40,983 nucleotides of DNA, taken from the IMG/VR virus record IMGVR_UViG_3300020046_003171, positions 1 through 40,983 of that record. One strand, written 5' to 3'. Below, one piece after another: positions 21,369 through 39,114 of this stretch (position 1 is its first letter; every line of letters starts with the position of its first letter). Position numbers and translations under genes: made by a program. The notes beneath the pieces were generated by a model. The model saw only the letters and a program-made list of their open reading frames with translations, did not search any database and had not been told where the DNA came from. Source of the DNA: a virus.

Positions 21369-21432
21369 GAGCTATGTCTCCTTACAGACTTAGTTTATGA
21401 GGGTATCGAGGATTCAGCCCCTCGGTGCCCAT

Positions 21433-21612: not shown

Positions 21613-21613
21613 C

Positions 21614-22120: not shown

Positions 22121-22190
22121 CCTTTCTTATCTTTCTTCTTTTTAGCTTTCTTAATCTTTTTTTCGCTAATCACTGGTACGGGTTTTTTCA

Positions 22191-22835
22191 TTATGCCACC
22201 GCTCTTAAAATTTGATAATAAACAATACAATCATTACCAGGATTGCCACTAAAAGTTAAAGTCAAAGTATTGTTGGTAACTGCGGTTTGTAACAATGTAA
22301 CGTTAGCTGTCCCGTTGTCTTTAATAACGCATGACGCAATGTCAGTTGCTAAAGCGCCGTTAACGACAATGGCTTCAGCCGCAGCACCACCAACTGTTGT
22401 ATATTGAGCACCGTATTTAACAATATGTGAAGGCGTAATACCAGCAGCAAGTTTTGCTAATGTTACGTTCGCATCTGCAATCTTTGCAGTAGTAACGGCA
22501 CTAGCTTGAATCGCAGCAGTATCAACAGAGTTTGCACCAACTTCAACAGCCGTTGTAATAACGCCGCTAACTACCGCCGTAACTGTTAATTGAATAACAC
22601 CATTAGAGCAAACGCAGTTAATAATGTCACCAACACCAAGCTGATTAGTAAATCCTGAAATAAAGAAATCAGAAAACGGTGTGAAATAACCTGCGGTAGA
22701 AACAGTTGCAATTGTATCTGTTGTAGTACCGTATCCCCAAATCAATGGAACTCGCGTCTGTGGAATACCATTAACATAGTATGCCAATGGCGGATTTAAT
22801 GATTGCTGAAACAAATTACTTGGAATAAAAGCCAT
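22191..22835 (-). CDS. Short tail fibre/receptor-binding protein (214 aa) sharing its N-terminal domain with the 842-aa fibre
   Basis: MAFIPSN.., GY.TT.DT.ATV.T.GYF, INC.CS.G, and NSV.TAAIQ..AVT align by eye with residues 1-105 of ORF 25486..28014. Confidence 0.6.
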   Translation of the reverse strand: MAFIPSNLFQQSLNPPLAYYVNGIPQTRVPLIWGYGTTTDTIATVSTAGYFTPFSDFFISGFTNQLGVGDIINCVCSNGVIQLTVTAVVSGVITTAVEVGANSVDTAAIQASAVTTAKIADANVTLAKLAAGITPSHIVKYGAQYTTVGGAAAEAIVVNGALATDIASCVIKDNGTANVTLLQTAVTNNTLTLTFSGNPGNDCIVYYQILRAVA

Positions 22836-22855
22836 GATAGTCTCCTTGGTTTAAG

Positions 22856-22990
22856 TTATTTACGTTTTTTAACTTTTTTATCTCGGTCCATCAGTTTCTC
22901 TGCGTTCTTCTCAATCTTTTCCGCAGCATTATAAATGGCTTTCGATTCTTTCTTATCTTTCTTTAAATGAGCTTTACTTACTTTTGGCAT
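22856..22990 (-). CDS. Lys-rich micro-protein (44 aa, below ORF-track cutoff)
   Basis: Hand-translated as [44 protein letters not shown]. Confidence 0.4.
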
Positions 22991-23123
22991 TTTTCTTACC
23001 TTTTGATTTTCCGGCTTTACTATAAGCAATAGCCGCAGCTTGTTTAACAGGCTTTCCGGCCCTTACTTCAGTAGCAATGTTCTCATTAATTACTTTTTTA
23101 GATTTGCCTTTTTTCAATGGCAT
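22974..23123 (-). CDS. Basic micro-protein (49 aa, below ORF-track cutoff)
   Basis: Hand-translated as [49 protein letters not shown]. An SD AAGGAAA lies 5 nt upstream. The [12 protein letters not shown] core resembles a widespread small basic protein family. Confidence 0.45.
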
Positions 23124-23132
23124 GGCATTTCC

Positions 23133-24083
23133 TTAAATACAAACAATAATTACTGCGCCTGGTCCGCCATCACCGCCAGCGCCGCCGATAGAGCCGACGC
23201 CATTAGTACCACCACCGCCACCACCGCCACATCCTATTCCGCCGTTTCCACCGGCGCCACCGGTTCCAACGGATGTATTTCCGCCGCCACCACTGCCACC
23301 GGATGCGATCATGGGTAAATCCATATCGCCAAATTGACCCCAAAAGTCATAACCAGTAATCCCAGCGCCGCCGCCGGCAGCACCGCCGTCTATTTGGGGG
23401 TAAAATGTGCTTGTTAAAATATTGCCACCAGCAAATGTGGTTGTTCCGGCGTTGACGCCGCCGCCTCCCGCGCCCCCACATGTGCAGGCTGCGCCAGTTA
23501 ACGGGGTTGCATTAGCGCCTACGGCAGCAGAGCCCCCGGTAACGCCTACATTTCCAGCCAAAAAGGAGTAGGACCCCAGAGAGGCGAGATGCACGGCAGA
23601 TATGAGCGCAGCGGCGGCATTTGCTGCGGGAGCCCCGGCAGTAGCTCCGTTGCCACCCAGCCCACCGCCACCACCGCCAGCATTTAAAATAAGATTGTTT
23701 GCGCCAGAATTAGGAGCTGTAGAAACCGTGCAGGCCGCCCCCGCAATTCCATTATTTGCGCCGCCACCCTGAGTTTGCCCTGCTGGCCCTTTTCTGCTGT
23801 TGCCTGGAGTAATATATATTTCTTTTGGTAATAATAAGGTTGAGACAAATATGGAAGAAACCGCTCCACCGCCCCCGCCGGCACCACCACCACCAGCGGT
23901 TGCCGCAGTTGATGCTCCGCCGCCGCCACCAGCGCCACCCGGCGCGATTGCCGTGATAAAAAGAAATTTTGCAGTTGTTGGCACAGAAAAAGAGAAAAAT
24001 GTAGCACTAGCAGTTGCCGGAGCTACCATGCCAACCCACATATGAGTCTGTCTGTTTTCGGAATAGTAATATTGTTGGTACAT
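23133..24083 (-). CDS. Glycine-rich protein, paralog B (316 aa), candidate polyglycine-type adhesin
   Basis: Gly runs (GGAGGGGG, GGGGAGGGGG, GGGGGGG) alternate with short hydrophobic strands. The C-terminus DMDLPMIASGGSGGGGNTSVGTGGAGGNGG..GGPGAVIIVCI is homologous to the upstream gene. Confidence 0.6.
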   Translation of the reverse strand: MYQQYYYSENRQTHMWVGMVAPATASATFFSFSVPTTAKFLFITAIAPGGAGGGGGASTAATAGGGGAGGGGGAVSSIFVSTLLLPKEIYITPGNSRKGPAGQTQGGGANNGIAGAACTVSTAPNSGANNLILNAGGGGGGLGGNGATAGAPAANAAAALISAVHLASLGSYSFLAGNVGVTGGSAAVGANATPLTGAACTCGGAGGGGVNAGTTTFAGGNILTSTFYPQIDGGAAGGGAGITGYDFWGQFGDMDLPMIASGGSGGGGNTSVGTGGAGGNGGIGCGGGGGGGTNGVGSIGGAGGDGGPGAVIIVCI

Positions 24084-24084
24084 G

Positions 24085-25050
24085 CTAAAACCAACTTATG
24101 ACAACGAAGCCTGGGCCGCCGCGGCCACCAGCGCCGCCCACTGAGGCAGCTCCATTCGTGCCACCACCACCGCCGCCACCTGAACCAGGACCACCATCAC
24201 CTCCTGCGCCGCCTGTGCCGACTAAAGTATTAGAACCTCCACCCGTTCCACCTGTAGAAACAAAAGGAAGATCCATGTCACCCCGATTCAATGTAAAATC
24301 AAAACCATCCAAACCCCTGCCACCGCCTGCTGCACCACCTGACTTTGTGGGCATAAAGCCACCTCCGGTCATCGCCCCGCCTGCGGCTGTTGTGGTACCT
24401 GCGTTTACAGCGCCACCACCTGAGCCTGCACCTGTTATGTTTCCCGCAGTCGCCCATGTTACTGCGGTACCAGCGCCCGTTGTTCCACCTGCGCCAGATG
24501 TTTGACCTGTGACAGAGAAAGTAACAATACCAAGCGAAGAAAGTGCCGCACCTGCTGCTGTGGTTATTGCAGTGGTTCCAGATGCAGCGCCCTGCGTAGC
24601 GCCAGAGGCGAGCTTTCCAGTACTTGTATTAGCACCCGATGAAAGACATATATAATTTGAGGCATTTGCGGATGGTCGTATTGACACAATGGAAGCGCGG
24701 CCAGCGTTCCCATTAGTAGCTGCTGCACCCCCTTGTACTTGACCTGTTCCTCCCGTACCGCCGGAACCAACAACTATAAATAGCACTGAAGGTATTAGGA
24801 TTGCTGGAACTATGACACTCATGTAAGGTGAGCCGCCACCGCCGGAGCCGCCCGCCCCTGCTACCCCAGCCGCGCTAGCTCCGCCACCACCTCCACCAGA
24901 TCCGCCAGATACACATAAGATTTGTATATATCTAGCGGTAGTTGGCTTATACCAGGTAAGCCAATTTGTAGTGACGGCACCTGGCATATCACCTATAAAA
25001 ACCTGTTGATTTTCAGATATCGAATAGGTTCGGTTATAGTTTTGGTACAT
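24085..25050 (-). CDS. Glycine-rich protein, paralog A (321 aa), candidate polyglycine-type adhesin
   Basis: Start set at ATG 25050 (TAATG overlap). This gives MYQNYNRTY, parallel to the MYQQYYY of paralog B. The C-terminus is DMDLPFVSTGGTGGGSNTLVGTGGAGGDGG..GGPGFVVISWF. Confidence 0.6.
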   Translation of the reverse strand: MYQNYNRTYSISENQQVFIGDMPGAVTTNWLTWYKPTTARYIQILCVSGGSGGGGGGASAAGVAGAGGSGGGGSPYMSVIVPAILIPSVLFIVVGSGGTGGTGQVQGGAAATNGNAGRASIVSIRPSANASNYICLSSGANTSTGKLASGATQGAASGTTAITTAAGAALSSLGIVTFSVTGQTSGAGGTTGAGTAVTWATAGNITGAGSGGGAVNAGTTTAAGGAMTGGGFMPTKSGGAAGGGRGLDGFDFTLNRGDMDLPFVSTGGTGGGSNTLVGTGGAGGDGGPGSGGGGGGGTNGAASVGGAGGRGGPGFVVISWF

Positions 25051-25484
25051 TAGTAATTTCCACCAATCGCACAAACTTGCCATGCAGTATTTGCAGCAAA
25101 AGCAGTGACACCAACAATAATTGTGTAAGATGCTGGTACTTGAAAATTAAGCGGAACCTCATACCCAAACGCAGCAGTTGTAGCCGTTACGTTAACTGCT
25201 GTGGCTGCAAGTGTAATTTCTTTTATTAGCGTATTGTTTGCGGCAGTTCCTGCGGAAGAGCCGTTATTCATGTAAATTCGACCCGCTGCCGCCGATGTCG
25301 TTGTCGAGCCAGATGTACTAATAGGCTGGAATATTAAGCGCTGTATAAACGCACCATTGGAACCCGCCGTAAAAACAAGCAGAACGTCGGCATCAGTACC
25401 TAACTGATTGGCGTCAGCAGCTGTAATAGAGGCCCAGCTAATGACAGGCGTAAGGGTATAAATCGGGTTTGTATTTGCTGGCAT
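25050..25484 (-). CDS. Small beta-rich fibre-associated protein (144 aa)
   Basis: Thr/Ala/Gly/Asn-rich ORF between the fibre and Gly-rich genes, coupled at both ends. Confidence 0.45.
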   Translation of the reverse strand: MPANTNPIYTLTPVISWASITAADANQLGTDADVLLVFTAGSNGAFIQRLIFQPISTSGSTTTSAAAGRIYMNNGSSAGTAANNTLIKEITLAATAVNVTATTAAFGYEVPLNFQVPASYTIIVGVTAFAANTAWQVCAIGGNY

Positions 25485-25485
25485 A

Positions 25486-28014
25486 TTAGTTACTAAAGCC
25501 TCCGAAGGTGATGGGGTACATTTTTCCGATAGTTACTCCGGCATTTCCTGGACTTGCAGCAACTGCCGCGTCGACATAAGCAGTCGTTGCCATTGTTGTA
25601 TTGTTGGTTAATGGCGCTTGAGTTGACCCTGTTACCGAGCTAGCTAATACGCAGGTTGGTGTTGCGGCATCTGCAGTTAATGTAATAAAAGCTGTATCAC
25701 TAGAGCCGCCAGTGTTTCGTGCGGACAATACTAAAGTGTTACCGCTTGTTGTTCCGGTAGATATTTTAGCTCCAAACAATTGCCTCCAACGGAAAGTTCC
25801 GCTACCAAGGTCAATTGCATTGTCAGAGCTTGCTAATAATGAAGTATTGATTGCGACGCTTGCTAAATTTCCAAGTGCTTTATTTGCTGCATTTGTTGAG
25901 ACCTGAGTATCTGCATAAGCGGTCGTCGCAATTTTTGTTGAGTTGTCATTTACCGACTGAGTGACTCCAGTCACGGCAGTCCCGATAGTTCCTGTTGTAA
26001 AAGTAAATGATGTGGCTGAGGCGCTGGCATATGAGCCGCCTGTTATTGTTTTTCCGGTAAACGTTAAAGCGCTAGGCAAAGATAATGTCCATGTTCTATT
26101 TGCGGACAAATCTTGAGCGCCGGCAGAGCTAGTAATTTCCGCCGCAGTTCCTGCAATAGTGATTGTCGTAGCGGGGCCTACGTAATCAGTCCCAGATACT
26201 CCTATGCTAACAACGCCAGTGCCTGTGGTTGATTTAAGAAGGCCGGTTGCTAGCGCGCTTAATGCTTGCTCATTAGTAAGGCTGCCATTAGGGGTTTGAG
26301 TAATATAAGTTGCCCCAATAGGAGCAGCTGCAGACGCTACAGCATCCGCATAGGCAGTCGTGGCGATTTTGGTGCTATTGTCATTAGCTGATTGCGTGGT
26401 AGCTGTCACAGAGCTTGCAAGAACCGCTGTAGGCGTATTGGCAGCGGTAATTGTAAAAAATGGTACTGAAACTGCGCCATCAACGTCCCAGCCGCTCAGA
26501 GTTAATGTATTTGCGTTTGTTTGGCCTGTAGAAATGTTTGTGGCGTAAACGTTTTTCCACCTTGTGGCGGGAATGCCCAGGTCGTCTGTATTGTCTGTAT
26601 CTGATACCAATGTAGTATTGATGGCTACGCCAGATAAATTGCTCAATGCCACATTAGCACCGCTGGCGGCGGCGGCTGCTGCATCAGCATAAGCAGTCGT
26701 AGCAAGCTTGGTGCTATTGTCTGATGCTGCCTGAGTAGTTGCTGTCACAGAAGATGCCAATACCGCAGTTGGTGTATTGTTTGCGGTGATGGTGAAAAAT
26801 GGGACGGCTGTAGCGCCATCAACATCCCAGCCGCTTAATGTAAGCGTGTCTGCAGCGGTGTCGCCAGTTTGTATACTTTTGGTATAAATATTATTCCAGC
26901 GAATTGCTTGGGTACCCAAGTCGTCGGTTACGTCAGTATCAGAGACTAACGTCGTATTAATCGCCACAGCCGCTAAATTGCTTAATGCTTGATTAGCTCC
27001 ACCAGCTGCTGCTGCAACCGCTGCATCTGTATAAGCTGTGGTGGCCAATTTAGTGGAATTGTCCAAAGGAGCTTGAGTTGTTGCGGTTATAGCGCTTCCT
27101 AAAACCCCGGTAGGCGTATTATTTGCCGTTAGCGTTAAGAACGGGGTCAAAGAACCGCCGTCGACGTCCCAGGCTCCGATAACGGTCGTATGACCTGCGG
27201 TATGGTCGGTCGTTATATTCGCTGCATATAAGTTATTCCAGCGCTTTGTAATAGAGCCTAAATCATCTGTCACATCCGTGTCAGATACGAGCGACGTGTT
27301 GATAGTTACGTTACCAGCATCAAGATTGCTCAGTTGTTCGTTAGCTCCACCGCCTCCGGCTGCAGCTACTGCATCGTCAACATATTCAGTCGTTGCAATG
27401 GTGGTATCGCTTGTTAATGGAGCTTGGGTCGTTGCTGTAACTGTGCTTCCCAATACGCCGGTTGGTGTATTGCTTGACGTAATAGTGAAGAAATCGACTT
27501 TAGCAGCGCCATCAACATCCCAGCCGCTTATCTTTAGCGTGTTTCCATTAGTGTGGCCCGCTTGAATAGAGGTTGCATATAACTCATTCCAGCGCAAACC
27601 ATCTATACCTAAATCATGGGTATCATCTGTATCTGGTATTAAAGGCGCATTGATTGCTGTAGCGGCAAGATTACTTAAATCATCATAGGCCAAGCCTGTG
27701 GTTTTAATCGGAGTTACTGCGCCATCTTGGATAGCTGCAGTATTAACCGAGTTTGGGCCAATAGAAATAAAGCTAGCCTGGGTTGTAACTGGGTCTATAT
27801 CAATGACTTTTAAAACAAGGATGCCATCGCTACAGGAGCAGTTTATTTGGTCATTAACGCTAAATTGGATTGACGAAGCATCTGGCCCATCTATGCCAAA
27901 ATATCCCGTAACCACAACTGTTGCTGTGGAATCTGTGGTTTCATAGCCGTATAAAGTTGGCCCTGGAAGATTCCATGGTGACCAACGTTGCATGTTACTT
28001 GGGATAAATGCCAT
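25486..28014 (-). CDS. Long tail fibre protein (842 aa) with five ~113-aa tandem modules
   Basis: Has an N-terminal MAFIPSN anchor domain. It then carries repeated units LSNL..AINT.LVSDTD.TDDLG...RW.N.Y...I.TG.T...TLTLSGWDVDGA...PFFTITA.NTPT.VL.S.VTATTQA..DNSTK[LI]ATTAY. Confidence 0.75.
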   Translation of the reverse strand: MAFIPSNMQRWSPWNLPGPTLYGYETTDSTATVVVTGYFGIDGPDASSIQFSVNDQINCSCSDGILVLKVIDIDPVTTQASFISIGPNSVNTAAIQDGAVTPIKTTGLAYDDLSNLAATAINAPLIPDTDDTHDLGIDGLRWNELYATSIQAGHTNGNTLKISGWDVDGAAKVDFFTITSSNTPTGVLGSTVTATTQAPLTSDTTIATTEYVDDAVAAAGGGGANEQLSNLDAGNVTINTSLVSDTDVTDDLGSITKRWNNLYAANITTDHTAGHTTVIGAWDVDGGSLTPFLTLTANNTPTGVLGSAITATTQAPLDNSTKLATTAYTDAAVAAAAGGANQALSNLAAVAINTTLVSDTDVTDDLGTQAIRWNNIYTKSIQTGDTAADTLTLSGWDVDGATAVPFFTITANNTPTAVLASSVTATTQAASDNSTKLATTAYADAAAAAASGANVALSNLSGVAINTTLVSDTDNTDDLGIPATRWKNVYATNISTGQTNANTLTLSGWDVDGAVSVPFFTITAANTPTAVLASSVTATTQSANDNSTKIATTAYADAVASAAAPIGATYITQTPNGSLTNEQALSALATGLLKSTTGTGVVSIGVSGTDYVGPATTITIAGTAAEITSSAGAQDLSANRTWTLSLPSALTFTGKTITGGSYASASATSFTFTTGTIGTAVTGVTQSVNDNSTKIATTAYADTQVSTNAANKALGNLASVAINTSLLASSDNAIDLGSGTFRWRQLFGAKISTGTTSGNTLVLSARNTGGSSDTAFITLTADAATPTCVLASSVTGSTQAPLTNNTTMATTAYVDAAVAASPGNAGVTIGKMYPITFGGFSN
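25549..27678. repeat. In-frame tandem repeat region: five ~340-bp (about 113-116 aa) modules, the fourth followed by a ~150-aa insert
   Basis: Module starts were counted at residues 113, 228, 344, 457 and 714 of the 842-aa protein. The DNA copies are visibly similar but diverged. Confidence 0.8.
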
Positions 28015-28024
28015 GTTCTGGACC

Positions 28025-28348
28025 TTATTTATCTAAAGATATGTGATAAGCTTGAAATTTTGATTCTCTTCCCGCTTTTAATTGATCGTATTCTGCTTGC
28101 CACTGTTGCATTCTAGATGCCACTTCAGAAGCATTGTTTTCAATAAATTCTGCGCCTTTCTTTGTGTCGGATAAGGCTTCAATCTTTTCTTTGTCGGTCA
28201 TTTCTAATGGTTTTGCTCGCTTATGCTCCCCGCAAGCCCAATCCGCAAGAATTGCCGCTTCTTCTAAGGGGTCCATTTCAATGTCTTGCTGTTCCGACCA
28301 TGTTCCATCTGGTTTTCTAACAGATGCAATTGTTTTAATAAGCGCCAT
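28025..28348 (-). CDS. Hypothetical protein between fibre genes (107 aa), possible fibre assembly factor
   Basis: Acidic, helical ORF between two fibre genes. The function is positional only. Confidence 0.35.
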   Translation of the reverse strand: MALIKTIASVRKPDGTWSEQQDIEMDPLEEAAILADWACGEHKRAKPLEMTDKEKIEALSDTKKGAEFIENNASEVASRMQQWQAEYDQLKAGRESKFQAYHISLDK

Positions 28349-28357
28349 AATTTTCCC

Positions 28358-30406
28358 TTAGTTCTTTATGCCGTATAAATCAAATCTACCGCTAGTAATA
28401 TTGCCGGAGTCCATCATGAATCTAATTCCATCAACTGCTGTGGTTACCCCAATTAATACGCCACCCATACTTAAATTGTATCCAATCGTTGCGCCAGTTG
28501 CTGAGAATGACCCATTACCATATACCAATTTATGATTTGTTGTATTTGATGGATTTGATAAATAGAACAAACCGCTTAAACCTTTTGTGGATGTATTGGA
28601 AAGATATCCGGAAAGAGTTGCTTCTATTTCAGAATCTCCATTGCTAGAGCCATTCCCACCTAAGCTTACAGTCGCCCATCCATAATCAGATGCCGAGTTT
28701 CTAAAGACGCCGCCAGACCTTAAGCGCATCCAGAGAGTGGTTGCGTTAGTTGCAGGCAATAAATAATTAACCTTAACTACATATGTGTCGTAAGTGGCAT
28801 CAATTGCTGCGGTAAAATCAATAGTGGCACTCGCAGCTGCGGTGGCGGTTGCAAGATGTATCCATGAACCAGTTCCGGCAGCAGCAATAGCGTCCGCATA
28901 AGCTGTTGTTGCAATTTTGGTGCTGTTGTCATTTGGAGCTTGGGTAGTAGCCGTAACATTGGAAGCCAATACGCAACTTGGTGTGTTGTTCGCAGTCAAA
29001 GTAATGAATGGAGTAAATACTGCGCCATCAACATCCCATGCGCCAATATTTAATACATCAGCAGCTGTATCGCCGGTTTGTAGCGTATTTGCATAAATAT
29101 TACGCCAGCGAATGGCTTGTGTACCAAGGTCATCTGTTATGTCGGTATCGGAAGCCAATGTTGTATTAATCGCCACGGCAGATAAGTTATTTAAACTGCG
29201 CGTTGCTGCATCATCTGCAATTTGAGATACCACAAAAGCGGTTGTGGCTAGTCTTGTGTCGTTGGTATTAACGGCTTGTGTGGTACCCGTCATAAATGAC
29301 GCCAATGTCGCCGTTGGCGGGTTACCAGCAGTCATACCGAGAACAGGCGTATAAGCGGCACCACCGGTGTCATAAGCTGCTAAAAAGGTTGCATCCCCAC
29401 CGGTTTCACCAGTAAGAATTTGGCCCGTGAACAGTTCGCTATATCTTAATGACTCAGAACCAATATTTACCACGTCATCTAGACCTGGCAATAAATTAGT
29501 ATTAATCGCAGTTGCTGCCAAGTTGCTTAAAGCGGTATTGGCATAGCTGCCAGGGGAAAAAGTAAATTGAGCAAACGCAATTGGGTCTGTGTCAACCGTA
29601 ACAACGACATTGGTTTCTACCCAAGAAGTAACAGCATTCACGGTGCCGTTAGTAATCATGAATAAAGTGCCAGGTTGAATTTCGGCGGCCTGGTCATAAT
29701 CTGTGGCCCTGGTTAATACCCAGTTAACAGCGCCCGAGCCGACAGTGGTTAATGTATAGCAGCCGTTATGTTGGCTGAGGGTCTGGTTTTTCACTAATAT
29801 TCGAGAATTCAGAGGCGGAGAAACCCCATCAACCGAGAAAGCCGCCATAGCGCCAGCATTCGTTAGCGTCGCACCAACACCCGCACCAGCTTGTGTGGCA
29901 TTTAAATTCGCTGTCGTAGCAGCATAGCAAAGTGGTTGAACTGCAATGCCTGAGCCTGCCGCGTCAACATATTGCTTAGTTGCTGCACCCAAGGCAACTG
30001 TAGGGTCACCCGATAAAATTAAAGGCCCCGTCATTGTTCCGCCAATCAAAGGAACGCTGTTTAGATTCACGCCGCCGGTCAATGTATTGGTGCCATCACA
30101 GAAAATCATTAAAACCAAACCGGGCTCTAAGGTAACCGTTGGGCCACCATTGATATTTCCTGATTGCGTCTCAACCGTTAAATCAAGCGCTGAATCATTC
30201 CTGATAAAGCAGAAGAATTGCGTGCTAACGATAGCGACGGTCATTATCTGGGCAGTCCAGGGACCTGCACCAGAGAATCTAAACATCTTGCCTCTATCAG
30301 CAAGCACGATGTCATAATCTGCGGTTTTTTCAACCGTTTCTGCGGTTACCTGAAGAACGGTTCTAGCAGAATTTTGTGAGCCTAAAGTCGTTACTAAAGT
30401 TGCCAT
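28358..30406 (-). CDS. Tail fibre protein (682 aa) carrying two copies of the same ~113-aa module
   Basis: Contains the fibre motifs LIGGTMTGPLILSGDP..AATKQYVD and RILVKNQT..HNGCYT. Residues 293-511 repeat the LSNL..AINT..DDLG..RW..DNSTKIATTAYAD module. A C-terminal jelly-roll-like domain follows. Confidence 0.7.
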   Translation of the reverse strand: MATLVTTLGSQNSARTVLQVTAETVEKTADYDIVLADRGKMFRFSGAGPWTAQIMTVAIVSTQFFCFIRNDSALDLTVETQSGNINGGPTVTLEPGLVLMIFCDGTNTLTGGVNLNSVPLIGGTMTGPLILSGDPTVALGAATKQYVDAAGSGIAVQPLCYAATTANLNATQAGAGVGATLTNAGAMAAFSVDGVSPPLNSRILVKNQTLSQHNGCYTLTTVGSGAVNWVLTRATDYDQAAEIQPGTLFMITNGTVNAVTSWVETNVVVTVDTDPIAFAQFTFSPGSYANTALSNLAATAINTNLLPGLDDVVNIGSESLRYSELFTGQILTGETGGDATFLAAYDTGGAAYTPVLGMTAGNPPTATLASFMTGTTQAVNTNDTRLATTAFVVSQIADDAATRSLNNLSAVAINTTLASDTDITDDLGTQAIRWRNIYANTLQTGDTAADVLNIGAWDVDGAVFTPFITLTANNTPSCVLASNVTATTQAPNDNSTKIATTAYADAIAAAGTGSWIHLATATAAASATIDFTAAIDATYDTYVVKVNYLLPATNATTLWMRLRSGGVFRNSASDYGWATVSLGGNGSSNGDSEIEATLSGYLSNTSTKGLSGLFYLSNPSNTTNHKLVYGNGSFSATGATIGYNLSMGGVLIGVTTAVDGIRFMMDSGNITSGRFDLYGIKN
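28874..29530. repeat. Two copies of the fibre module shared with gene 25486..28014
   Basis: DTDITDDLGTQAIRWRNIY here compares with DTDVTDDLGTQAIRWNNIY in the 842-aa protein. The DNA is also recognisably similar. Confidence 0.75.
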
Positions 30407-30415
30407 GTTTTTTCC

Positions 30416-31171
30416 TTAGGTCACAATCCAGTTACCGCTTTGAACCATGCGCCAGTTTCCAGCGCCCTGATAAGTGAGTCTTCCCCACCCTGATAAAATT
30501 CCACCTGTAGTAGATAGCGTGACATTCCCAGTTGTAAATGTTGAAACCTGCTCGACTAAAGTGATTGATTGGCCAACGCCATAATCAATCACAACGCCAT
30601 TGGTGGTTAAGGTGCTTACCTCGACGACATCCCCAAGAGATGCCACCAGTGGAAGCGTTATGGTTACCGGTATGCCTGCCGCAACAATATAGCCACTATT
30701 AACGGTGGCAGCTTGGTTGGCAACAATAGCAGACCATGTGAGAGCGCCACCACCGCCGCCACCAGCCACCGCGGCGCCATAGTTCCCTAAAAAGAATCCA
30801 GTCGTTGGTGTGATTGCAAAATAAACTGGAACAATCGAGTCTGGTCCAACAGGAATGGTTGCTGTTAATTTTCCAGCATTCGTTGGTGAAAGATAATATA
30901 AAGTTCCTGCGACATAAGCGCCGCCAGGATTTACAGGCGCAGAGGTTAAGCCGTAAACGTACCCAGCTTGAGTGATATAGAATTCGGAACCAGCAGTTTT
31001 AATTGCTGAAACCATCCCGATTACAAGGGCATTGGATGCCGTGTTCGCTTGTGAGCCTACATAGTTAACGCCATCAAATCGAACAACATCACCTCGGACA
31101 AAAGTGTTTGCGGGTTGATTGACATATTGATACAGCGCATTCGTTGCTAATATTTTTGCTGACTGTGCCAT
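30416..31171 (-). CDS. Fibre-like protein (251 aa) with one copy of the ~120-aa HG-F...YYLS domain
   Basis: VNQPANTFVRGDVVRF...GTLYYLSPTNAGKLT...PV parallels the three domains of the upstream gene. A poly-Gly linker GGGGGG is present. Confidence 0.55.
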   Translation of the reverse strand: MAQSAKILATNALYQYVNQPANTFVRGDVVRFDGVNYVGSQANTASNALVIGMVSAIKTAGSEFYITQAGYVYGLTSAPVNPGGAYVAGTLYYLSPTNAGKLTATIPVGPDSIVPVYFAITPTTGFFLGNYGAAVAGGGGGGALTWSAIVANQAATVNSGYIVAAGIPVTITLPLVASLGDVVEVSTLTTNGVVIDYGVGQSITLVEQVSTFTTGNVTLSTTGGILSGWGRLTYQGAGNWRMVQSGNWIVT

Positions 31172-32967
31172 TATTCTATCTCCTCTACCGTCCAGGATGA
31201 GGTCATAGGAGCGCCTACGCCAAGAACCTGGGTGTTGTTAAATGTGGCTGTAACTACCCCTACTGCGGTTGCGCACAAAATCCTTAAATCTATATTTTGA
31301 ATGGCTGTGGTTCCAGGGCTGTACACGTACATATAGGTAATAGTTCTCGTGCCCCCAAGACCTACGCCCATATTTGCACTTCCGTGATAAACAAGAGAAT
31401 CAGTGATTTCAACACCATTTATCCATAATGTGTAATAAGAGCCATACTGCTGATTTCCGTTGAGAGAAATAAGAATTCTAATTTTGTTTGCAGCATTTGT
31501 TAGCGTTATTGCAGTTTGTAAAAATGGAATAGAGACATACGCAGCATTTGAATAAACAATATTGTGTAGATTCGAATCTTGGAATGCTAAGCATTGAACA
31601 ATCGCGCCACCACCGCCACCCCCGCCAACCAGCGTTGGTTTCATTGGAAATATCCAGCCAGCGTTTGTTTGATCTGCCTCGAACATGGGTTTGGAGTAGA
31701 ATGGATTTGCAGGCTCGACGGTTGTGATTTGCCCCGCATTTGTCGCGCTCAAGTAATATGGCACACCATTGGTTAATGGGAATGCCGGATTCACAACCCC
31801 GCCAGGAACAGGAGGAACAGTGTCCATTTTGTTGAAGTATCCGACTTCTTGCACCGTGAAATTATCAATATCGATAATTTCAATCATGCCGACACCAAAT
31901 GAGCCTGTTAAATTTGAAGCATTTGCTGGCTCATATTTACCAACGTTCCCGCCACCCGTTTGAGCCTTAACAACAAGACCGTTATACAAGAATCCATGAG
32001 CAGGCTGGTTTACAGACAATATAATAGGATTAGTTGTTGCTGCTGTGATTTCTAAAGGCAGTTGCGGAAGCACCCAGCCAGCTGTCGTATTAGTTGCCTG
32101 GAGCATTGGTTTTTTCCAATGACCAATCGTGGTTGGTTCAATGGTTTGCAATGCGCCAGGCGTTGTTGTGCTTAGCCAGTATTGATTTCCCGGAATAAAT
32201 GGAGAAACTGGCGCAATAAAGCCTGCCATGAATCCTGATTGCTGCAGATAAAATGTATTTAAAGTTGGAGGTGGAACGGCAGCAACGAAGCCTACTGCTT
32301 TTTCTCTTCCTGGCGTAACGCCGTCTGCGAGAGCTAGCGCATAGTGATTTGCGGAGTCATTATAAAGAGCTTGACCAATCGAGAAGCCGTGTCCGTTTTG
32401 CGTAATTAATTCAATAACAGGCTGGCCGTCTCCACCATCTGGCAAATCAGAGAATACTTGTTGCTGACCATTATTTATTATTCCGTCAAACTGCCTGATA
32501 AAACCAGTCTTATCTGTATATGCTACAAATAATGGCAATCTAACTTGGCCGTTTTCTAAATTTTCAACCAGCGTCATTTGACCTGGGTTGTTGGCGCTTA
32601 AGAAGTAAGCGGGACCAACCGTCAAACCAGTAAAGACACCTTCATCAACAAACCCTTCGGTTTGTAATACAAATTTATTGACTGGGTCAGTCGCATCTAA
32701 TCGAATGACAACACCTTCAACCTCTGCCTTCACATCAGTTGTAGAGTCTGCTTTCTGAAACAAACCTGCGGTGTCAATATAAACCCAATCTTGTGGAGAT
32801 AGGCCATGATTTGGCTGCGTAATGGTTACGATGCTACCGCTGCCATTCCCGCCCGTTGGTGCGTTGAACTGGTAATTTTGTCCATTGCGAAGACCGACAA
32901 CAATATCGCCTGCCTGCGTATCGCCGCCGACAACGAATTGACTAAATTTACGCGTTCTAATCGACAT
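31171..32967 (-). CDS. Fibre-like protein (598 aa) with three tandem ~120-aa domains
   Basis: Three repeats are visible: ITQPNHGLSPQDWVY..AYFLSANNPGQMT, ITQNGHGFSIGQALY..QYWLSTTTPGALQT and VNQPAHGFLYNGLVV..PYYLSATNAGQITT. A GGGGGGG linker and a C-terminal beta domain follow. Confidence 0.6.
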   Translation of the reverse strand: MSIRTRKFSQFVVGGDTQAGDIVVGLRNGQNYQFNAPTGGNGSGSIVTITQPNHGLSPQDWVYIDTAGLFQKADSTTDVKAEVEGVVIRLDATDPVNKFVLQTEGFVDEGVFTGLTVGPAYFLSANNPGQMTLVENLENGQVRLPLFVAYTDKTGFIRQFDGIINNGQQQVFSDLPDGGDGQPVIELITQNGHGFSIGQALYNDSANHYALALADGVTPGREKAVGFVAAVPPPTLNTFYLQQSGFMAGFIAPVSPFIPGNQYWLSTTTPGALQTIEPTTIGHWKKPMLQATNTTAGWVLPQLPLEITAATTNPIILSVNQPAHGFLYNGLVVKAQTGGGNVGKYEPANASNLTGSFGVGMIEIIDIDNFTVQEVGYFNKMDTVPPVPGGVVNPAFPLTNGVPYYLSATNAGQITTVEPANPFYSKPMFEADQTNAGWIFPMKPTLVGGGGGGGAIVQCLAFQDSNLHNIVYSNAAYVSIPFLQTAITLTNAANKIRILISLNGNQQYGSYYTLWINGVEITDSLVYHGSANMGVGLGGTRTITYMYVYSPGTTAIQNIDLRILCATAVGVVTATFNNTQVLGVGAPMTSSWTVEEIE

Positions 32968-32971
32968 CGTT

Positions 32972-33346
32972 TTAGGTTCCTATTTGGTAGAACGCAACTG
33001 AAACATCGGCAGCTGCAGCACAGATGAAGTGCAAAACATCTCCAGCATGCACGAGTTTTGCTGGGGGTAGCAACTCAGAAGTAGACGCGGCAAACGCTGC
33101 GCCTGCAGGAACTGCAGCAACTGCACCCACTGCAACATAAACTTTCTTTGCAGCTTCATAGCTGAATACTGCTAATATCTTTGCTTCCGAAGTTGATGGG
33201 AATGTTCCCATCGCGCTAATTGATGGAACGGTTAAAGTCGTATCAGTAGCCACCGCAAGCGTTGCTGTGTATGTGTCATTACAGAATGGCGCGCCGAATC
33301 CGTTTACACCGCAGGCGAAAGAATTAGAATTATATTGAGTTAGCAT
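32972..33346 (-). CDS. Small beta-rich fibre-associated protein (124 aa)
   Basis: Ala/Thr/Val-rich ORF between two fibre genes. Confidence 0.4.
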   Translation of the reverse strand: MLTQYNSNSFACGVNGFGAPFCNDTYTATLAVATDTTLTVPSISAMGTFPSTSEAKILAVFSYEAAKKVYVAVGAVAAVPAGAAFAASTSELLPPAKLVHAGDVLHFICAAAADVSVAFYQIGT

Positions 33347-33358
33347 TTTAAATCCTTA

Positions 33359-35527
33359 TTAGTTAACAACGCCTAAACGGGCATCGGCCGTGTAATGAAG
33401 TCTGATGGAGAATACAACAGGTGTCGTAATATTCGTGTATGGACGCGCGGTTCCCAAAATATCGACCGTGGTGTCGAAGTGGTATATTTTATTACCAGAC
33501 ACACCAGTCCAGTTTGCAGCCGCAACATCCTCGTTTGCAGTGCCTGCACCTTTAGAGAAAACATTAACTGTTCCGCCGCCCGTTATATTTACGGGGCTAT
33601 ACAATTTTAGAGTCGGATTATTTACGCGTTTTGCTGTATTAAACGCAATTGAAAATCCATTGGGCTGCAAACTTGTGTTGCCGGCAGATGGCAATGTTGA
33701 ATTCTGGGCGAAAGATAAGGCATTTACAGAGGTTGCTGTATCTACCGCAGCCGCAGTTTCATAGCTCATTTCATAATAACGCTGGCATTCTCTTAGCACT
33801 TGGTCAGGCGTTTGTGGCGCAGGACGTGTAGCAATATCACCTGCATTCAATGAAACCCAGTCTAAGTTCACCCAGCCTGCCGCAGTGACAGAGTCAAACC
33901 CGATCACGATAGCAAAGAAGGTTGCGGTTCCCACCAAAGGTGCGGAAACGTTATCGGTCCAGCCGGATAAGAATGTTTCGCTGTCTGCAGCGGATAAGTT
34001 AATTTTAGCGGGGCCAGAGAGTCTGCTTAGCTCAGTCCATGTGCCATTTCGCGTAGCAACGGAGCCGTCAGCATTCAATGTGGCGACAATAGAGTTATAA
34101 GTCGCAGGCGCAACGCTTGGTAGGTTTGCGTCCGTTGTTGCCCATAGCGAGATAGTGCCACTGTGCGCGACGTTTGAAGAGCCTTTAATTCCCACTGAGA
34201 CGCGCCCAGAGAGGATGTCGTTAGCTTGTTCTGCACCTAGATACTGAATGACCGCCAATTGCGTGGTGGCGTTTGCAGTCAACCTTAAACCGCCCGCAGC
34301 ATCCACCGAAGCGATTACGCCGTTGGTTGCGCTTTGAAACACAATGGTTTGGTCCCATGCATAGAATGACTTGTTAGCACCCGTAGCGATTGGCCCTACG
34401 GTGTTACCAAATTGCCTTGGGTTCAATCTAAAATCCCAGCCTGTCAAATAGGATGGAATAGGTTTGCGCTGTAGCAATGGATTGTAATAGTGGAACAAAT
34501 GGTCTTGTTGACGATTTACCGTTTCTTGCTCAAAAGCTACGTTTTCTTCTGCGTTGTCCAAGCCAACAACTTGTACGCTGGTTAGCCTTGTCGTTCCTGC
34601 TAATGGCAGTTCGATGACGATATCAACATACCCGTCAGTGGCTGGGCTATCTGGGTTATCACCAATCAATAATTGCGTTGTATCTCTGAATTCTTTATAG
34701 GCACCGCTGTTATTGGTAGCATCTAGAATTGTTTGGCGCGTTCCCGTATTAGAGGGAGCGTAATACATTTTAGCCGATGTCGTGTTGGCTAAGGTAATGG
34801 ATGCTGCGATGTAACCAATATTATTAGCCGAAGTAGATGACCAGATATCAGGATTTCTTGGCAGCCTTTGATAAAGCTCAAAGCTCGTAAGATTAGAGCC
34901 TGCCGTAATCGACAATACATAAGGTGGATTGGTTTGGATATTTTGCGTGCCGGTGATGTCTAGGCGATTAACTGTAATGGAGCCAGCGCCGGCATGGGTT
35001 GCCTTTAAAAACCAACCTGGGGCAATCTCTTGGGTAGTAGTGCTATTCCCAGAATAAGTAATTGTTAGGCCTGTTGTTGTATCAAACAGAACATCTACAA
35101 ACTGAGGGTTGCTTAATTGATTGCTAAAACCGCCATTTCCGCCGCCGTTTGCTGGGTCTAATGAACCCACAACATTCGGCCATGCTTCCCGCACAAATTG
35201 CGGAACGACCATGTCATCTGCGCTGAAGACTTCAACATAGTAAAGCTCAACATTACCATCGGCGTCATAAGGATAGTAATAAACCGCAATGTTATCCTGC
35301 CCTGCATTCTGAAACGTGCCAACCGCACTTAAGTGAATAGGGTTCGGTAACGCCGTGTAGGTGTAGTTAGGGGGCGCGCCAGACAACTGATATACAGGTT
35401 TTGGCGTATTTCTTTGGTCGTCCTCCCAGAAATATACCAACCCGTTAGCGAGCGGAAGACCAGTGAGCTTATCAACAAATAGAGGCTCAAGCGTAGTGTC
35501 GGTGATATATCGTTCATCTAATGCCAT
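33359..35527 (-). CDS. Tail fibre/tailspike protein (722 aa)
   Basis: The N-terminal LEPLFVDKLTGLPLANGLVYFWEDDQRNTPKPVYQ...NPIHLSAVG matches the common fibre/tailspike N-terminal motif. It is the first gene after the ejection proteins. Confidence 0.65.
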   Translation of the reverse strand: MALDERYITDTTLEPLFVDKLTGLPLANGLVYFWEDDQRNTPKPVYQLSGAPPNYTYTALPNPIHLSAVGTFQNAGQDNIAVYYYPYDADGNVELYYVEVFSADDMVVPQFVREAWPNVVGSLDPANGGGNGGFSNQLSNPQFVDVLFDTTTGLTITYSGNSTTTQEIAPGWFLKATHAGAGSITVNRLDITGTQNIQTNPPYVLSITAGSNLTSFELYQRLPRNPDIWSSTSANNIGYIAASITLANTTSAKMYYAPSNTGTRQTILDATNNSGAYKEFRDTTQLLIGDNPDSPATDGYVDIVIELPLAGTTRLTSVQVVGLDNAEENVAFEQETVNRQQDHLFHYYNPLLQRKPIPSYLTGWDFRLNPRQFGNTVGPIATGANKSFYAWDQTIVFQSATNGVIASVDAAGGLRLTANATTQLAVIQYLGAEQANDILSGRVSVGIKGSSNVAHSGTISLWATTDANLPSVAPATYNSIVATLNADGSVATRNGTWTELSRLSGPAKINLSAADSETFLSGWTDNVSAPLVGTATFFAIVIGFDSVTAAGWVNLDWVSLNAGDIATRPAPQTPDQVLRECQRYYEMSYETAAAVDTATSVNALSFAQNSTLPSAGNTSLQPNGFSIAFNTAKRVNNPTLKLYSPVNITGGGTVNVFSKGAGTANEDVAAANWTGVSGNKIYHFDTTVDILGTARPYTNITTPVVFSIRLHYTADARLGVVN

Positions 35528-35528
35528 T

Positions 35529-38488: not shown

Positions 38489-38497
38489 ATTATTTCC

Positions 38498-39106: not shown

Positions 39107-39114
39107 ATGTTCCT

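What the first reader, a model, noticed from the sequence alone, without database searches (positions are those of the whole stretch)
22191..35527. About one third of the genome is a continuous run of fibre/adhesin-like genes
Every gene from 35527 down to 22191 fits the same profile. The products are 722, 124, 598, 251, 682, 107, 842, 144, 321 and 316 aa, then two micro-ORFs, then 214 aa. Each is either Thr/Ala/Gly/Asn/Val-rich beta-type protein with classical fibre motifs (GGTMTGPL..KQYVD, DNSTK[IL]ATTAY, PLANGLVYFW..TPKPVYQ) or a small accessory ORF. P22/T7-like podoviruses normally carry one or two receptor-binding genes. This density suggests a branched, multivalent or modularly exchangeable receptor-binding apparatus.
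Basis: partly seen in the sequence, partly recalled or inferred. Interest (0 to 1): 0.7.

Follow-up and report, generated by a model that had tools for sequence, protein, structure and literature searches.

The report
Expanded swappable tail-fibre gene block
An uncultured P22-type short-tailed phage spends a third of its 41-kb genome on one operon of tail-fibre proteins, docking pieces and glycine-rich tip proteins, and its near-identical relatives swap the outer half as a cassette, which makes it an unusually large but recognisable kind of host-recognition apparatus.

Summary
Thirteen co-directional, tightly packed minus-strand genes fill 22191-35527, which is 13,337 nt or 32.5% of the window. 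All quoted sizes and motifs are present.

Independent evidence places the large products in phage fibres:
- The 682-aa protein shares a domain with the cryo-EM-verified Legionella phage LME-1 tail fibre.
- The 722-aa model is an N-domain plus three CBM-like beta-sandwiches, and it matches annotated tail fibres.
- The 321- and 316-aa glycine-rich paralogues model like Bxb1 gp33 ("tail wing brush").
- The 598- and 251-aa proteins are built from an unannotated 125-aa domain that elsewhere sits in collagen-like tail fibres.
- The 842-aa protein shares 113-aa repeats with 682 and its N-domain with 214.

Relatives keep hub-722-124 and a ~30-aa N-terminal peptide on the next gene. Everything downstream varies, and the block runs from 5.5 to 13.3 kb, with the window the largest seen. 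Two relatives are ~100% identical up to the 682-type gene and then diverge or become non-homologous, so cassette exchange is shown. A "long fibre, 144-aa protein, 2-3 Gly-rich genes" cassette recurs in unrelated phages.

Branched or multivalent geometry and virion incorporation are inferred, not shown. I rate this a new variant of a known kind, of moderate interest.

The parts
33359..35527 (-). The 722-aa conserved primary (hub-proximal) fibre. It has an N-domain (aa 1-115), a disordered linker (aa 118-132) and three CBM-like beta-sandwich domains.
   Evidence: The AF2 model has pLDDT 85.6. Foldseek against PDB finds tandem CBM22, CBM61, Cry/Vip3 C-terminal domains and SGBP-B. Foldseek against BFVD finds many annotated tail fibres. 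It is 45-50% identical across the whole family and co-conserved with the hub gene. It sits where the LME-1 tail-fibre gene sits, after the internal-protein genes.
32972..33346 (-). The 124-aa small Ala/Thr/Val-rich protein, the obligate partner of 722. Its fold is unassigned.
   Evidence: It is present directly after the 722 homologue in every relative examined and is 97% identical in L038/L039. It has no Pfam, PHROG or PDB match.
31171..32967 (-). The 598-aa secondary fibre. It has an N-terminal docking peptide, three copies of a 125-aa domain, a Gly7 hinge (aa 448-454) and a C-terminal domain.
   Evidence: The family is restricted to this phage clade, and one homologue carries a Peptidase_G2 intramolecular-chaperone domain.
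32857..32967 (-). The conserved ~30-37-aa N-terminal peptide KFSQF..GD.VVGLRNG.N..F, a putative docking peptide.
   Evidence: It is the only part of this gene conserved (49-69% identity) with the otherwise unrelated 147-983-aa third genes of distant relatives.
31624..32832 (-). Three tandem copies of the unannotated ~125-aa domain in 598.
   Evidence: See alignment A6. A profile finds 6,085 cluster representatives with 2-7 copies per protein. The domain co-occurs with collagen repeats, tail-fibre PHROGs and Gly_rich_2.
30416..31171 (-). The 251-aa fibre segment. It has one 125-aa domain (30752-31144), a Gly6 hinge and a C-terminal domain.
   Evidence: The C-terminal domain recurs at the end of the L038 443-aa fibre and in the 147-aa 'peptide + domain' genes of L005, L003 and L008.
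28358..30406 (-). The 682-aa tail fibre. It has an N-domain, an LME-1-like domain, two 113-aa repeats (28862-29530) and a C-terminal domain.
   Evidence: It matches PHROG tail-fibre families 8745 and 11518. tblastn finds annotated tail fibres of Roseobacter, Pelagibacter, Methylophilales and Synechococcus phages.
29453..30004 (-). The domain of 682 (aa 135-318) that is homologous to the Legionella phage LME-1 tail fibre.
   Evidence: phmmer against PDB finds 9EFK orf22 residues 238-422 at E 1.9e-24. orf22 has 18 chains, and the paper describes six trimers of the tail fibre protein (PMC12407071).
28025..28348 (-). The 107-aa acidic, helical-looking protein, a putative fibre assembly chaperone assigned by position only.
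   Evidence: Its D+E+K+R fraction is 0.34. It has no family match. A non-homologous 151-152-aa gene fills the same slot in L038, L039 and L041.
25486..28014 (-). The 842-aa fibre. It has a shared N-terminal domain, five ~113-aa repeats (25540-27678, interrupted by an insert at aa 569-713) and a C-terminal ...YPITFGGFSN.
   Evidence: The first 323 aa are 78-91% identical to the 352-450-aa homologues of L038, L039 and L041, so the window copy is repeat-expanded.
27685..28014 (-). The N-terminal ~110-aa domain of 842, shared with the 214-aa protein.
   Evidence: It is 41% identical over ~120 aa at E 8e-13. It is also found in the L012 302-aa protein.
25050..25484 (-). The 144-aa conserved partner of the Gly-rich proteins, part of the tip cassette.
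   Evidence: Homologues lie between a long fibre gene and Gly_rich_2 genes in L039, L041, L050, L051, L052 and L053. It is 42% identical to the L052 139-aa protein at E 2e-28.
24085..25050 (-). The 321-aa glycine-rich protein (Pfam Gly_rich_2), with a predicted beta-sandwich plus polyglycine-II/PPII helix bundle.
   Evidence: It matches PF21722 at 25.2 bits against a cut-off of 24.3. The AF2 model has pLDDT 89 and pTM 0.87. Foldseek finds Bxb1 9D93 chain Q at E 7e-11, the ALK glycine-rich domain and the cyanophage Pam3 fibre. A profile against PDB finds 'Tail wing brush, gp33' at E 7e-4.
23133..24083 (-). The 316-aa glycine-rich paralogue.
   Evidence: It is 44% identical to the 321-aa protein and matches PHROG 754, minor tail protein. 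Tandem paralogues recur in L050, L052 and L053.
22974..23123 (-). The 49-aa basic micro-ORF, of unknown function.
   Evidence: It is conserved in L038, L042, L018 and L050.
22856..22990 (-). The 44-aa basic micro-ORF, of unknown function.
   Evidence: A near-identical copy lies in L038.
22191..22835 (-). The 214-aa short fibre-like protein. Its N-domain (22482-22835) is shared with 842 and its C-terminal half is variable. It is the last gene before the lysis-side genes.
   Evidence: It has weak PHROG tail-fibre matches. Its C-terminal domain is 55% identical to the L014 279-aa protein, and equivalents sit in the same position in L005, L003, L046 and L047.

Best explanation
The block is the late-operon host-recognition module of an uncultured podovirus lineage with a P22-type head, portal and hub.

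Shown:
- The large products are built from phage-fibre domains.
- 722 and 124 are invariant core parts that co-vary with the hub.
- The genes after them are a mosaic of interchangeable N-terminal docking elements, shaft repeats, poly-Gly hinges and C-terminal domains.
- The distal half is exchanged between near-identical phages.
- 144 and the Gly-rich paralogues travel as a cassette behind a long fibre gene in several phage lineages.

Inferred mechanism:
- Trimers of 722 attach to the adaptor/hub ring through the N-domain and display lectin-like beta-sandwich domains.
- The 598-type fibre docks on the 722/124 platform through its conserved ~30-aa peptide, like the conserved peptide of RBP2 in KP32-type branched systems.
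- 251, 682 and 842 extend or branch the structure through their own N-terminal modules.
- 842 and 214 use the same docking site, or two equivalent sites, because they share an N-domain.
- The tip of 842 (C-terminal G.FSN) is capped by 144 plus a pair of polyglycine-II bundle proteins that contact the cell surface.
- 107 aa acts as an assembly chaperone.

The result would be a particle that presents several different binding domains and can re-tool the outer ones by recombination.
For: Head and hub type:
- The window has P22_portal (E 2e-64), P22_CoatProtein and Sf6_terminase.
- The 517-aa protein matches PHROG 'head closure Hc3', and its orthologues carry Phage_stabilise/gp10.

Fibre identity:
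- 682 matches the LME-1 tail fibre (PMC12407071) and tail-fibre PHROGs.
- The 722 model matches tail fibres in BFVD and CBM-like folds in PDB.
- The Gly-rich model matches Bxb1 gp33, the Pam3 fibre and the ALK glycine-rich domain. PMC13243192 describes these as PPII-helix bundles akin to the S16 tail protein (6F45).
- The 125-aa domain occurs in collagen-like and tail-fibre proteins and is fused to Gly_rich_2 in P0415.
- A Peptidase_G2 chaperone domain is present in a 598 homologue.

Tip cassette:
- It recurs in other lineages.

Operon structure:
- Gene gaps are short, there is no excess of promoter- or terminator-like sites, and there are no inverted repeats.
Against: - There are no virion proteomics or images, so incorporation and geometry are unproven.
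- 124, 107, 144 and the micro-ORFs have no fold or family assignment.
- 722 has no detectable P22 Head_binding or T7 fibre N-domain by sequence, and no T4 gp10-like branching domain appeared among the top Foldseek hits.
- The docking-peptide role is an analogy.
- The C-terminal G.FSN motif is absent from the L052 and L053 fibres, which nonetheless carry the cassette.
- The 251-type C-terminal domain may be a connector rather than a receptor-binding tip.
- Bxb1 gp33 is dispensable and its ligand is unknown (PMC12646305).
Confidence: 0.65

Rival explanations
1. One long jointed fibre rather than many receptor binders. On this reading 598, 251, 682, 842 and the tip proteins join end to end, as T4 gp34-35-36-37(-38) do, so the phage has only one or two specificities despite the gene count.
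For: - Neighbouring genes share modules in a chain-like way: 598 with 251, 682 with 842, and the 251 C-terminal domain with the ends of other fibres.
- L005-type relatives replace 598 and 251 by a 147-aa 'peptide + 251C' connector followed by one 1,301-1,507-aa fibre.
- A separately encoded tip cassette follows the last long fibre.
Against: - 842 and 214 share an N-domain, which implies two proteins for one kind of site.
- Each large protein ends in its own distinct globular C-terminal domain.
- 722 already carries three lectin-like domains.
- The number of fibre genes varies freely among relatives, which is easier to accommodate with parallel attachments.
Confidence: 0.2
2. Part of the block decorates the capsid. 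Some products, for example the 214-type protein, 842 or the Gly-rich proteins, would be head fibres or decoration proteins rather than tail parts.
For: - The LME-1-like domain of 682 also hits a PHROG labelled 'head decoration' (phrog_2647).
- The 214 C-terminal motif also occurs in proteins encoded between the coat and hub genes in L048, and just after the hub gene in L018.
- A fibre-like 243-aa gene sits beside the coat gene.
- The 214-type gene is set apart from the others by micro-ORFs.
Against: - The solved homologues are tail-tip or tail-fibre parts: LME-1 orf22, Bxb1 gp33 and the Pam3 fibre.
- The block lies after the hub and internal-protein genes, where tail fibres are encoded in LME-1. 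By my own knowledge of T7-type genomes, not tested here, the same holds for T7.
Confidence: 0.1
3. The products are not virion proteins. They would be secreted or cell-surface adhesins, or lysogenic-conversion genes carried as cargo, or the large block would be an assembly chimera of several strains.
For: - Composition alone cannot separate phage fibres from bacterial adhesins.
- At least one relative is an integrated prophage (L046).
Against: - The genes lie in the same strand and operon as the structural genes, and the block ends at the lysis-side genes.
- The homologues are phage fibre parts.
- The same gene order is found on independent contigs from several samples and assemblers: P0001 on 6 contigs, P0002 on 24+ contigs.
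Confidence: 0.04

Closest known systems
Branched dual-RBP systems of Klebsiella podophages KP32, K11 and KP34 (anchor domain + branching domain on RBP1; 29-aa conserved docking peptide on RBP2; PMC13352976)
   Same: - It is a podovirus with a conserved primary fibre followed by a second gene.
- Only the first ~30 residues of that second gene are conserved, while the rest is free to vary.
- The specificity parts are swappable.
   Different: - The head and hub are P22-type, not T7-type.
- No sequence similarity to the KP32 anchor or peptide was seen. The Pfam, PHROG and PDB sequence searches of the 722 and 598 proteins returned no such match, and no direct comparison with KP32 proteins was run.
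- No T4 gp10-like branching domain was detected.
- There are six or more fibre-type genes rather than two.
- The domains are lectin-like and repeat shafts rather than beta-helix depolymerases.
Legionella phage LME-1 tail fibre orf22 (PDB 9EFK; PMC12407071)
   Same: - Residues 135-318 of the 682-aa protein are homologous to orf22 residues 238-422 (E 2e-24).
- The gene order coat, decoration-like gene, adaptor-like gene, hub/nozzle, internal proteins, fibre is alike.
   Different: - LME-1 has a single fibre gene and T7-like tail proteins.
- Here the homologous domain lies in the fifth gene of the block, not in the hub-proximal 722-aa protein.
- The rest of the proteins are unrelated.
Mycobacteriophage Bxb1 gp33 'tail wing brush' (PDB 9D93), with related PPII/polyglycine-II bundles in the cyanophage Pam3 fibre and the tail protein of Salmonella phage S16 (PDB 6F45, which I identify from my own knowledge as the gp38 adhesin) (PMC13243192, PMC12646305)
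   Same: - The 321-aa model matches gp33 by fold (E 7e-11, TM 0.61 on the target) and by profile (E 7e-4).
- It is glycine-rich, small (~300 aa), separately encoded, and expected at the outer end of a tail appendage.
   Different: - Bxb1 is a siphovirus, and gp33 sits on gp30/gp31 wings.
- Here the partner is a conserved 144-aa protein behind a long fibre, the genes come as tandem paralogues, and the phage is a podovirus.
- S16 6F45 was not among the listed Foldseek hits.
T4 long tail fibre gene set (gp34-gp38, gp57), from textbook knowledge and not tested here
   Same: - Several consecutive genes encode fibre segments.
- It includes a tip adhesin and a chaperone.
   Different: - T4 is a 169-kb myovirus, and its fibre genes are about 5% of the genome.
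- No sequence relation was seen.
P22 / Sf6 tailspike arrangement
   Same: - The portal, coat, small terminase and gp10-type hub are shared.
   Different: - No beta-helix tailspike was found, and no Head_binding domain was detected in 722.
- By textbook knowledge P22 has one tailspike gene of about 2 kb, against 13.3 kb of fibre genes here.

Membership tests
P22-like virion module (portal, coat, gp10 hub, Sf6-type small terminase) | P22-type portal protein | tested here: met
   PF16510 matches window 3873-5972 at E 1.7e-64 and 218.8 bits, against a cut-off of 26.1.
P22-like virion module (portal, coat, gp10 hub, Sf6-type small terminase) | P22 gp5-type coat protein and Sf6-type small terminase | tested here: met
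   PF11651 scores 39.2 bits against a cut-off of 24. PF20901 scores 88.9 bits against a cut-off of 27.
P22-like virion module (portal, coat, gp10 hub, Sf6-type small terminase) | gp10-type hub (Phage_stabilise) | tested here: inconclusive
   The window 517-aa protein has no Pfam hit at E<=0.01. It does match PHROG 578 'head closure Hc3' at E 5e-29. Its 50-80% identical orthologues carry precomputed PF11134.
P22-like virion module (portal, coat, gp10 hub, Sf6-type small terminase) | Tailspike with an N-terminal head-binding domain and a beta-helix | tested here: not met
   The 722 N-terminus has no Pfam hit even at E<=5. No PDB sequence hit was found. The model is made of beta-sandwiches, not a beta-helix.
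Pfam PF21722 Gly_rich_2 | Score above the gathering threshold | tested here: met
   The 332/321-aa protein scores 25.2 bits against a cut-off of 24.3, and most of its homologues carry the domain. The 316-aa paralogue has no direct Pfam hit but is 44% identical to the 321-aa protein.
Bxb1 gp33-type PPII/polyglycine-II bundle tail-tip proteins | Fold similarity to the solved gp33 | tested here: met
   Foldseek gives E 6.8e-11, probability 1.00 and TM 0.61 normalised to the target. A profile hmmsearch gives E 6.8e-4. The model has 222 of 321 residues at pLDDT >= 90, with little regular helix or strand, as expected for PPII bundles.
Bxb1 gp33-type PPII/polyglycine-II bundle tail-tip proteins | Location at the distal tail in the particle | not testable with these tools
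   This needs virion proteomics or cryo-EM.
KP32-type branched RBP system | A short conserved N-terminal docking peptide on the secondary RBP | tested here: met
   A ~30-aa peptide is the only segment conserved between 598 and the third genes of distant relatives. This is a pattern match only; there is no sequence homology to the KP32 peptide.
KP32-type branched RBP system | A T7 gp17-type anchor and a T4 gp10-like branching domain on the primary RBP | tested here: not met
   No Pfam or PHROG hit was found for the 722 N-terminus. No gp10-like structure is among the top 50 PDB Foldseek hits.
KP32-type branched RBP system | Physical binding of RBP2 to RBP1 | not testable with these tools
   No multimer prediction or experiment was available.
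LME-1 orf22 tail-fibre family | Homology over the capsid-proximal (adaptor/nozzle-binding) domain | tested here: not met
   Only the middle domain of orf22 (residues 238-422) aligns, and it aligns to the 682-aa protein. 722, 598 and 842 have no PDB sequence hits.

The most novel reading that the evidence does not exclude
A P22-type podovirus lineage has built a layered, multi-receptor fibre tree from its own set of docking elements. These are a ~30-aa peptide, a shared ~110-aa N-domain and a C-terminal G.FSN tail, none of which is homologous to the known anchor or branching domains. It also uses a widely mobile three-gene 'tip cassette' (a 144-aa adaptor plus two polyglycine-II bundle proteins) that can be plugged onto long fibres of unrelated phages, as a general and so far undescribed adhesin system.
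Probability: 0.3. Interest if true: 0.65.

Novelty: new variant of a known kind. Interest (0 to 1): 0.45.

Why it matters
Host range is set by these proteins.

The lineage is abundant in peat, soil and freshwater metagenomes. It has no cultured member and no nucleotide match among 50,697 deposited phage genomes.

If the inferred rules hold, they give simple handles for predicting and engineering specificity in uncultured podoviruses. The rules are a fixed 722/124 platform, a short docking peptide, poly-Gly hinges as joints, and a sharp recombination boundary at the 682-type gene.

Two building blocks also deserve family descriptions. One is the 125-aa domain, with more than 6,000 cluster representatives and no Pfam model. 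The other is the cassette of the 144-aa protein plus the Gly_rich_2 proteins, which recurs in unrelated phages.

Tried and rejected
- Megablast of 22000-40983 against deposited phage genomes found no match.
- tblastn of 598 and 214 against the same collection found no match.
- PDB sequence searches of 722, 842, 598 and the 124 family found nothing credible.
- Pfam on isolated sub-domains at E<=5 gave nothing above noise. The sub-domains were the 722 N-terminus, the 842 N-terminus, the 598 peptide, the 113-aa repeat and the four C-terminal domains, plus the full-length 124- and 144-aa proteins. I therefore dropped the idea that the 722 N-terminus is a P22 head-binding domain.
- I tested whether the 124- and 144-aa proteins are paralogues. 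hhalign gave a probability of 0.2%, so they are not.
- Tandem Repeats Finder found no arrays. The 339-342-nt repeats are old, at 60-77% identity, and not a recent expansion.
- I looked for an invertible or phase-variable fibre switch. There are no inverted repeats in 21000-36000.
- I considered a diversity-generating retroelement. No ORF outside the structural genes exceeds 254 aa, so there is no room for a reverse transcriptase, and the 'Mtd second domain' hit is below threshold.
- Host assignment from genome bins was rejected as unreliable. The ~30-41 kb contigs are binned into unrelated phyla, and only L046 is clearly integrated.
- The antisense ORFs 24098-24505 and 23684-24007 are shadows of the Gly-rich genes.

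Full report
**1. What is in the sequence**

The window is a circularly permuted ~41-kb phage genome. On the minus strand it encodes these genes in order:
- small terminase (7502-8002)
- large terminase (5965-7518)
- portal (3873-5972)
- scaffold (2981-3682)
- coat (1697-2941)
- two ~240-aa genes

The order then wraps to a gp10-like hub (39390-40943), and 92-, 202-, 353- and 638-aa genes that I take, from their position between hub and fibre genes, to encode internal proteins. Pfam gives P22_portal (E 2e-64), P22_CoatProtein and Sf6_terminase. The hub matches PHROG 'head closure Hc3', and its orthologues carry Phage_stabilise. The chassis is therefore P22-type, although the portal is only ~21% identical to any cultured phage. 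The structural half has no nucleotide match in 50,697 deposited phage genomes.

Directly downstream lies the block of the finding. It holds 13 co-directional genes from 35527 to 22191 with short or overlapping junctions. It spans 13,337 nt, which is 32.5% of the window. The 321-aa size is correct if the ATG at 25050 is used, which overlaps the stop of the 144-aa gene. All three quoted motifs are present.

The composition claim is quantitatively true. The module proteins have T+A+G+N+V+S of 0.50-0.72 and charged residues of 0.04-0.14. Elsewhere the values are 0.27-0.47 and 0.12-0.34. The exceptions are the acidic 107-aa protein and the very basic micro-ORFs. Promoter-like and terminator-like sites are not enriched, and there are no inverted repeats. 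This is consistent with one late operon and no invertible switch.

**2. Evidence that the products are fibre parts**

*682 aa.* Residues 135-318 match residues 238-422 of orf22 of Legionella phage LME-1 (PDB 9EFK, E 1.9e-24). orf22 has 18 chains in the entry. The paper describes the tail fibre as six trimers that contact the adaptor and nozzle (PMC12407071). The 682-aa protein also matches PHROG tail-fibre families and annotated fibres of marine and freshwater phages.

*722 aa.* An AlphaFold2 model built from 47 homologues has pLDDT 85.6. It shows an N-domain, a disordered linker and three beta-sandwich domains. Foldseek against PDB finds tandem CBM22, CBM61, the Cry and Vip3 C-terminal domains and a Bacteroides surface glycan-binding protein. 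Foldseek against BFVD finds many proteins named tail fibre, and CenC-like carbohydrate-binding proteins. It is not a beta-helix tailspike. No P22 head-binding domain is detectable.

*321 and 316 aa.* These are paralogues, 44% identical. The first passes the Pfam Gly_rich_2 threshold. Its model has pLDDT 89 and pTM 0.87, and it is mostly non-helix, non-strand at high confidence. The best fold match is chain Q of the Bxb1 tail tip (E 7e-11), followed by the ALK glycine-rich domain and the cyanophage Pam3 fibre. A profile search names the Bxb1 chain 'Tail wing brush, gp33'. PMC13243192 describes gp33, the Pam3 fibre and the S16 tail protein (6F45) as PPII-helix bundles. PMC12646305 places gp33 at the outer end of the Bxb1 wing and reports that a related phage, Hami1, lacks the homologues of genes 30-35, so the region is thought to be non-essential.

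*598 and 251 aa.* Neither has a library match. Both are built from a ~125-aa domain, three copies in 598 and one in 251. A profile of the four copies finds 6,085 cluster representatives at E<=1e-3, with 2-7 copies per protein. Seven long hits were sampled. Two of them also carry collagen repeats. Most carry tail-fibre PHROG regions. One (P0415) carries a C-terminal Gly_rich_2 domain in the same chain. A 598 homologue carries the Peptidase_G2 intramolecular chaperone domain, which by my own knowledge is typical of fibres and spikes.

*842 aa.* It has five ~113-aa repeats, 50-55% identical to the two repeats in 682. Its first ~110 residues are 41% identical to the N-terminus of the 214-aa protein.

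*124, 107, 144 aa and the micro-ORFs.* These have no fold assignment.

**3. What relatives show**

Homologues of 722 number more than 500, mostly on 34-42 kb contigs. In every relative examined the order hub, internal proteins, 722, 124 is kept, at 40-50% identity in distant members.

The next gene always starts with a ~30-aa peptide, KFSQF..GD.VVGLRNG.N..F. The rest of that gene ranges from 147 to 983 aa and is unrelated between clades.

The length of the block, measured from the 722 start to the last fibre-like gene, varies as follows:

| Block length | Loci |
|---|---|
| 5.5-6 kb | L014, L046, L047 |
| 7-9 kb | L042, L044, L005, L003 |
| 11-13 kb | L045, L048, L038 |
| 13.3 kb | the window |

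The window is therefore the upper end of a continuum rather than an isolated oddity.

Two close relatives share an identical 722 protein. L038 and L039 are ~100% identical in DNA from the hub gene to the end of the 253-aa gene. They drop to 63-78% from the start of the 682-type gene. After the 842-type gene they become non-homologous: L038 has 257/260/272/125-aa genes and L039 has the 144-aa and Gly-rich genes.

The window is 76% identical to L039 over 722, 124 and 598. It is 93.7% identical over the first 1.55 kb of the 682 gene and 87% identical over the start of 842. These are recombination footprints.

The window's 842-aa protein equals the 352-450-aa homologues over the first 323 residues (78-91% identity) and then carries extra repeats.

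The window also encodes an ERF and YqaJ recombination pair.

**4. A portable tip cassette**

The order 'long fibre, 144-like gene, two or three Gly_rich_2 genes' is found in several loci:

| Locus | Gene sizes in order (aa) | Note |
|---|---|---|
| L039, L041 | | close relatives; both loci end at the contig end, so L041 shows only a 60-aa fragment after its 144-aa gene |
| L050 | 435, 145, 301, 311, 304 | |
| L051 | 1024, a truncated call, 324 | a different podovirus with a Mu-like capsid |
| L052 | 973, 139, 57, 306, 314 | unrelated larger phage contig |
| L053 | 1214, 139, 57, 306, 314 | unrelated larger phage contig |

The window 144-aa protein is 42% identical to the L052 139-aa protein (E 2e-28). 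The fibres upstream of the cassette end in G.FSN in the window, L039, L041, L050 and L051, but not in L052 or L053.

**5. Mechanism**

Shown:
- The large products have fibre domain content.
- There is a conserved core and a variable periphery.
- Docking-type elements are shared between paralogues.
- The distal half is exchanged by recombination.
- The tip cassette is portable.

Inferred:
- 722 trimers bind the hub.
- The 598-type protein docks through its peptide. This is analogous to the 29-aa conserved peptide of RBP2 that binds the branching domain of RBP1 in KP32-type phages (PMC13352976).
- The other fibres add on in parallel or in series.
- 842 and 214 use the same kind of site.
- 144 and the Gly-rich pair cap 842.
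- The 107-aa protein is a chaperone.

Whether the assembly is branched, serial or partly on the capsid cannot be decided from sequence.

**6. Comparison and novelty**

Multi-RBP and branched systems are well known in Ackermannviridae, G7C, SP6/K1-5, KP32 and T5-like DT57C. This block differs in four ways:
- The chassis is P22-type.
- The docking elements are not homologous to the known ones.
- The scale is six or more fibre-type genes and one third of a 41-kb genome.
- It uses a polyglycine-II tip cassette.

I rate it a new variant of a known kind, of moderate interest.

Noticed in passing
window 906-1637 (-): A 243-aa gene lies between the coat gene and the 238-aa gene. It has the same fibre-like composition as the block (T+A+G+N+V+S 0.59, charged residues 0.10). 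It also has a sub-threshold Pfam 'Mtd second domain' hit (E 0.0036). [quoted passage not shown]
   Followed up: partly
window 22974-23123, 22856-22990 and 22114-22230 (-): There are three very basic micro-ORFs of 49, 44 and ~25-38 aa, Lys-rich. The first two are conserved in relatives and always sit between the last fibre or Gly-rich gene and the 214-type gene. A 28-nt direct repeat links 22122-22149 and 22948-22975. Their function is unknown.
   Followed up: partly
window 24098-24505 (+) and 23684-24007 (-): A 135-aa Pro-rich ORF and a 107-aa ORF are shadows of the Gly-rich genes (GGN codons read on the other strand or in another frame) and are not genes. The same codons raise GC to 0.54 at 23-25 kb, against ~0.44 elsewhere.
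   Followed up: yes
window 17775-19081 (+): An ERF single-strand annealing protein (E 4e-23) and a YqaJ-type exonuclease (E 5e-17) are encoded side by side. A phage-borne recombination system like this could drive the mosaicism seen in the fibre block.
   Followed up: no
L046 (contig CAWBOF010000004.1, 1.87 Mb, Candidatus Acidoferrales MAG): A family member with 722, 124 and a peptide-bearing third gene lies inside a 1.87-Mb bacterial contig. At least some members are therefore temperate, and Acidobacteriota may be hosts. Other 'genome' hits are phage-sized contigs binned into unrelated phyla.
   Followed up: partly
L038 19009-21387: Three tandem paralogous ~260-aa genes (257, 260 and 272 aa) replace the 144-aa and Gly-rich cassette in a phage that is otherwise identical to L039 up to the 253-aa gene. 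They look like an alternative, uncharacterised tip set.
   Followed up: no
P0415 (1270 aa, metagenomic protein): One polypeptide joins tail-fibre PHROG regions, two copies of the 125-aa domain of 598/251 and a C-terminal Gly_rich_2 domain. This fusion links parts that are encoded by separate genes in the window.
   Followed up: partly
window 21614-22120 (-) and 21433-21747 (-): The 168-aa protein after the block is conserved in relatives at the same position but has no Pfam match. The overlapping 104-aa ORF has a hydrophobic stretch. They are probably lysis genes of an undescribed type.
   Followed up: no
window 39390-40943 (-) and the window ends: The hub ORF is 517 aa here, while orthologues are 531-565 aa and start about 34 residues earlier. 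The gene starts 40 nt from the window end, and the longest contig carrying the identical 722 protein is 41,141 nt against 40,983 nt here. The window may therefore lack ~160 nt at the junction.
   Followed up: no
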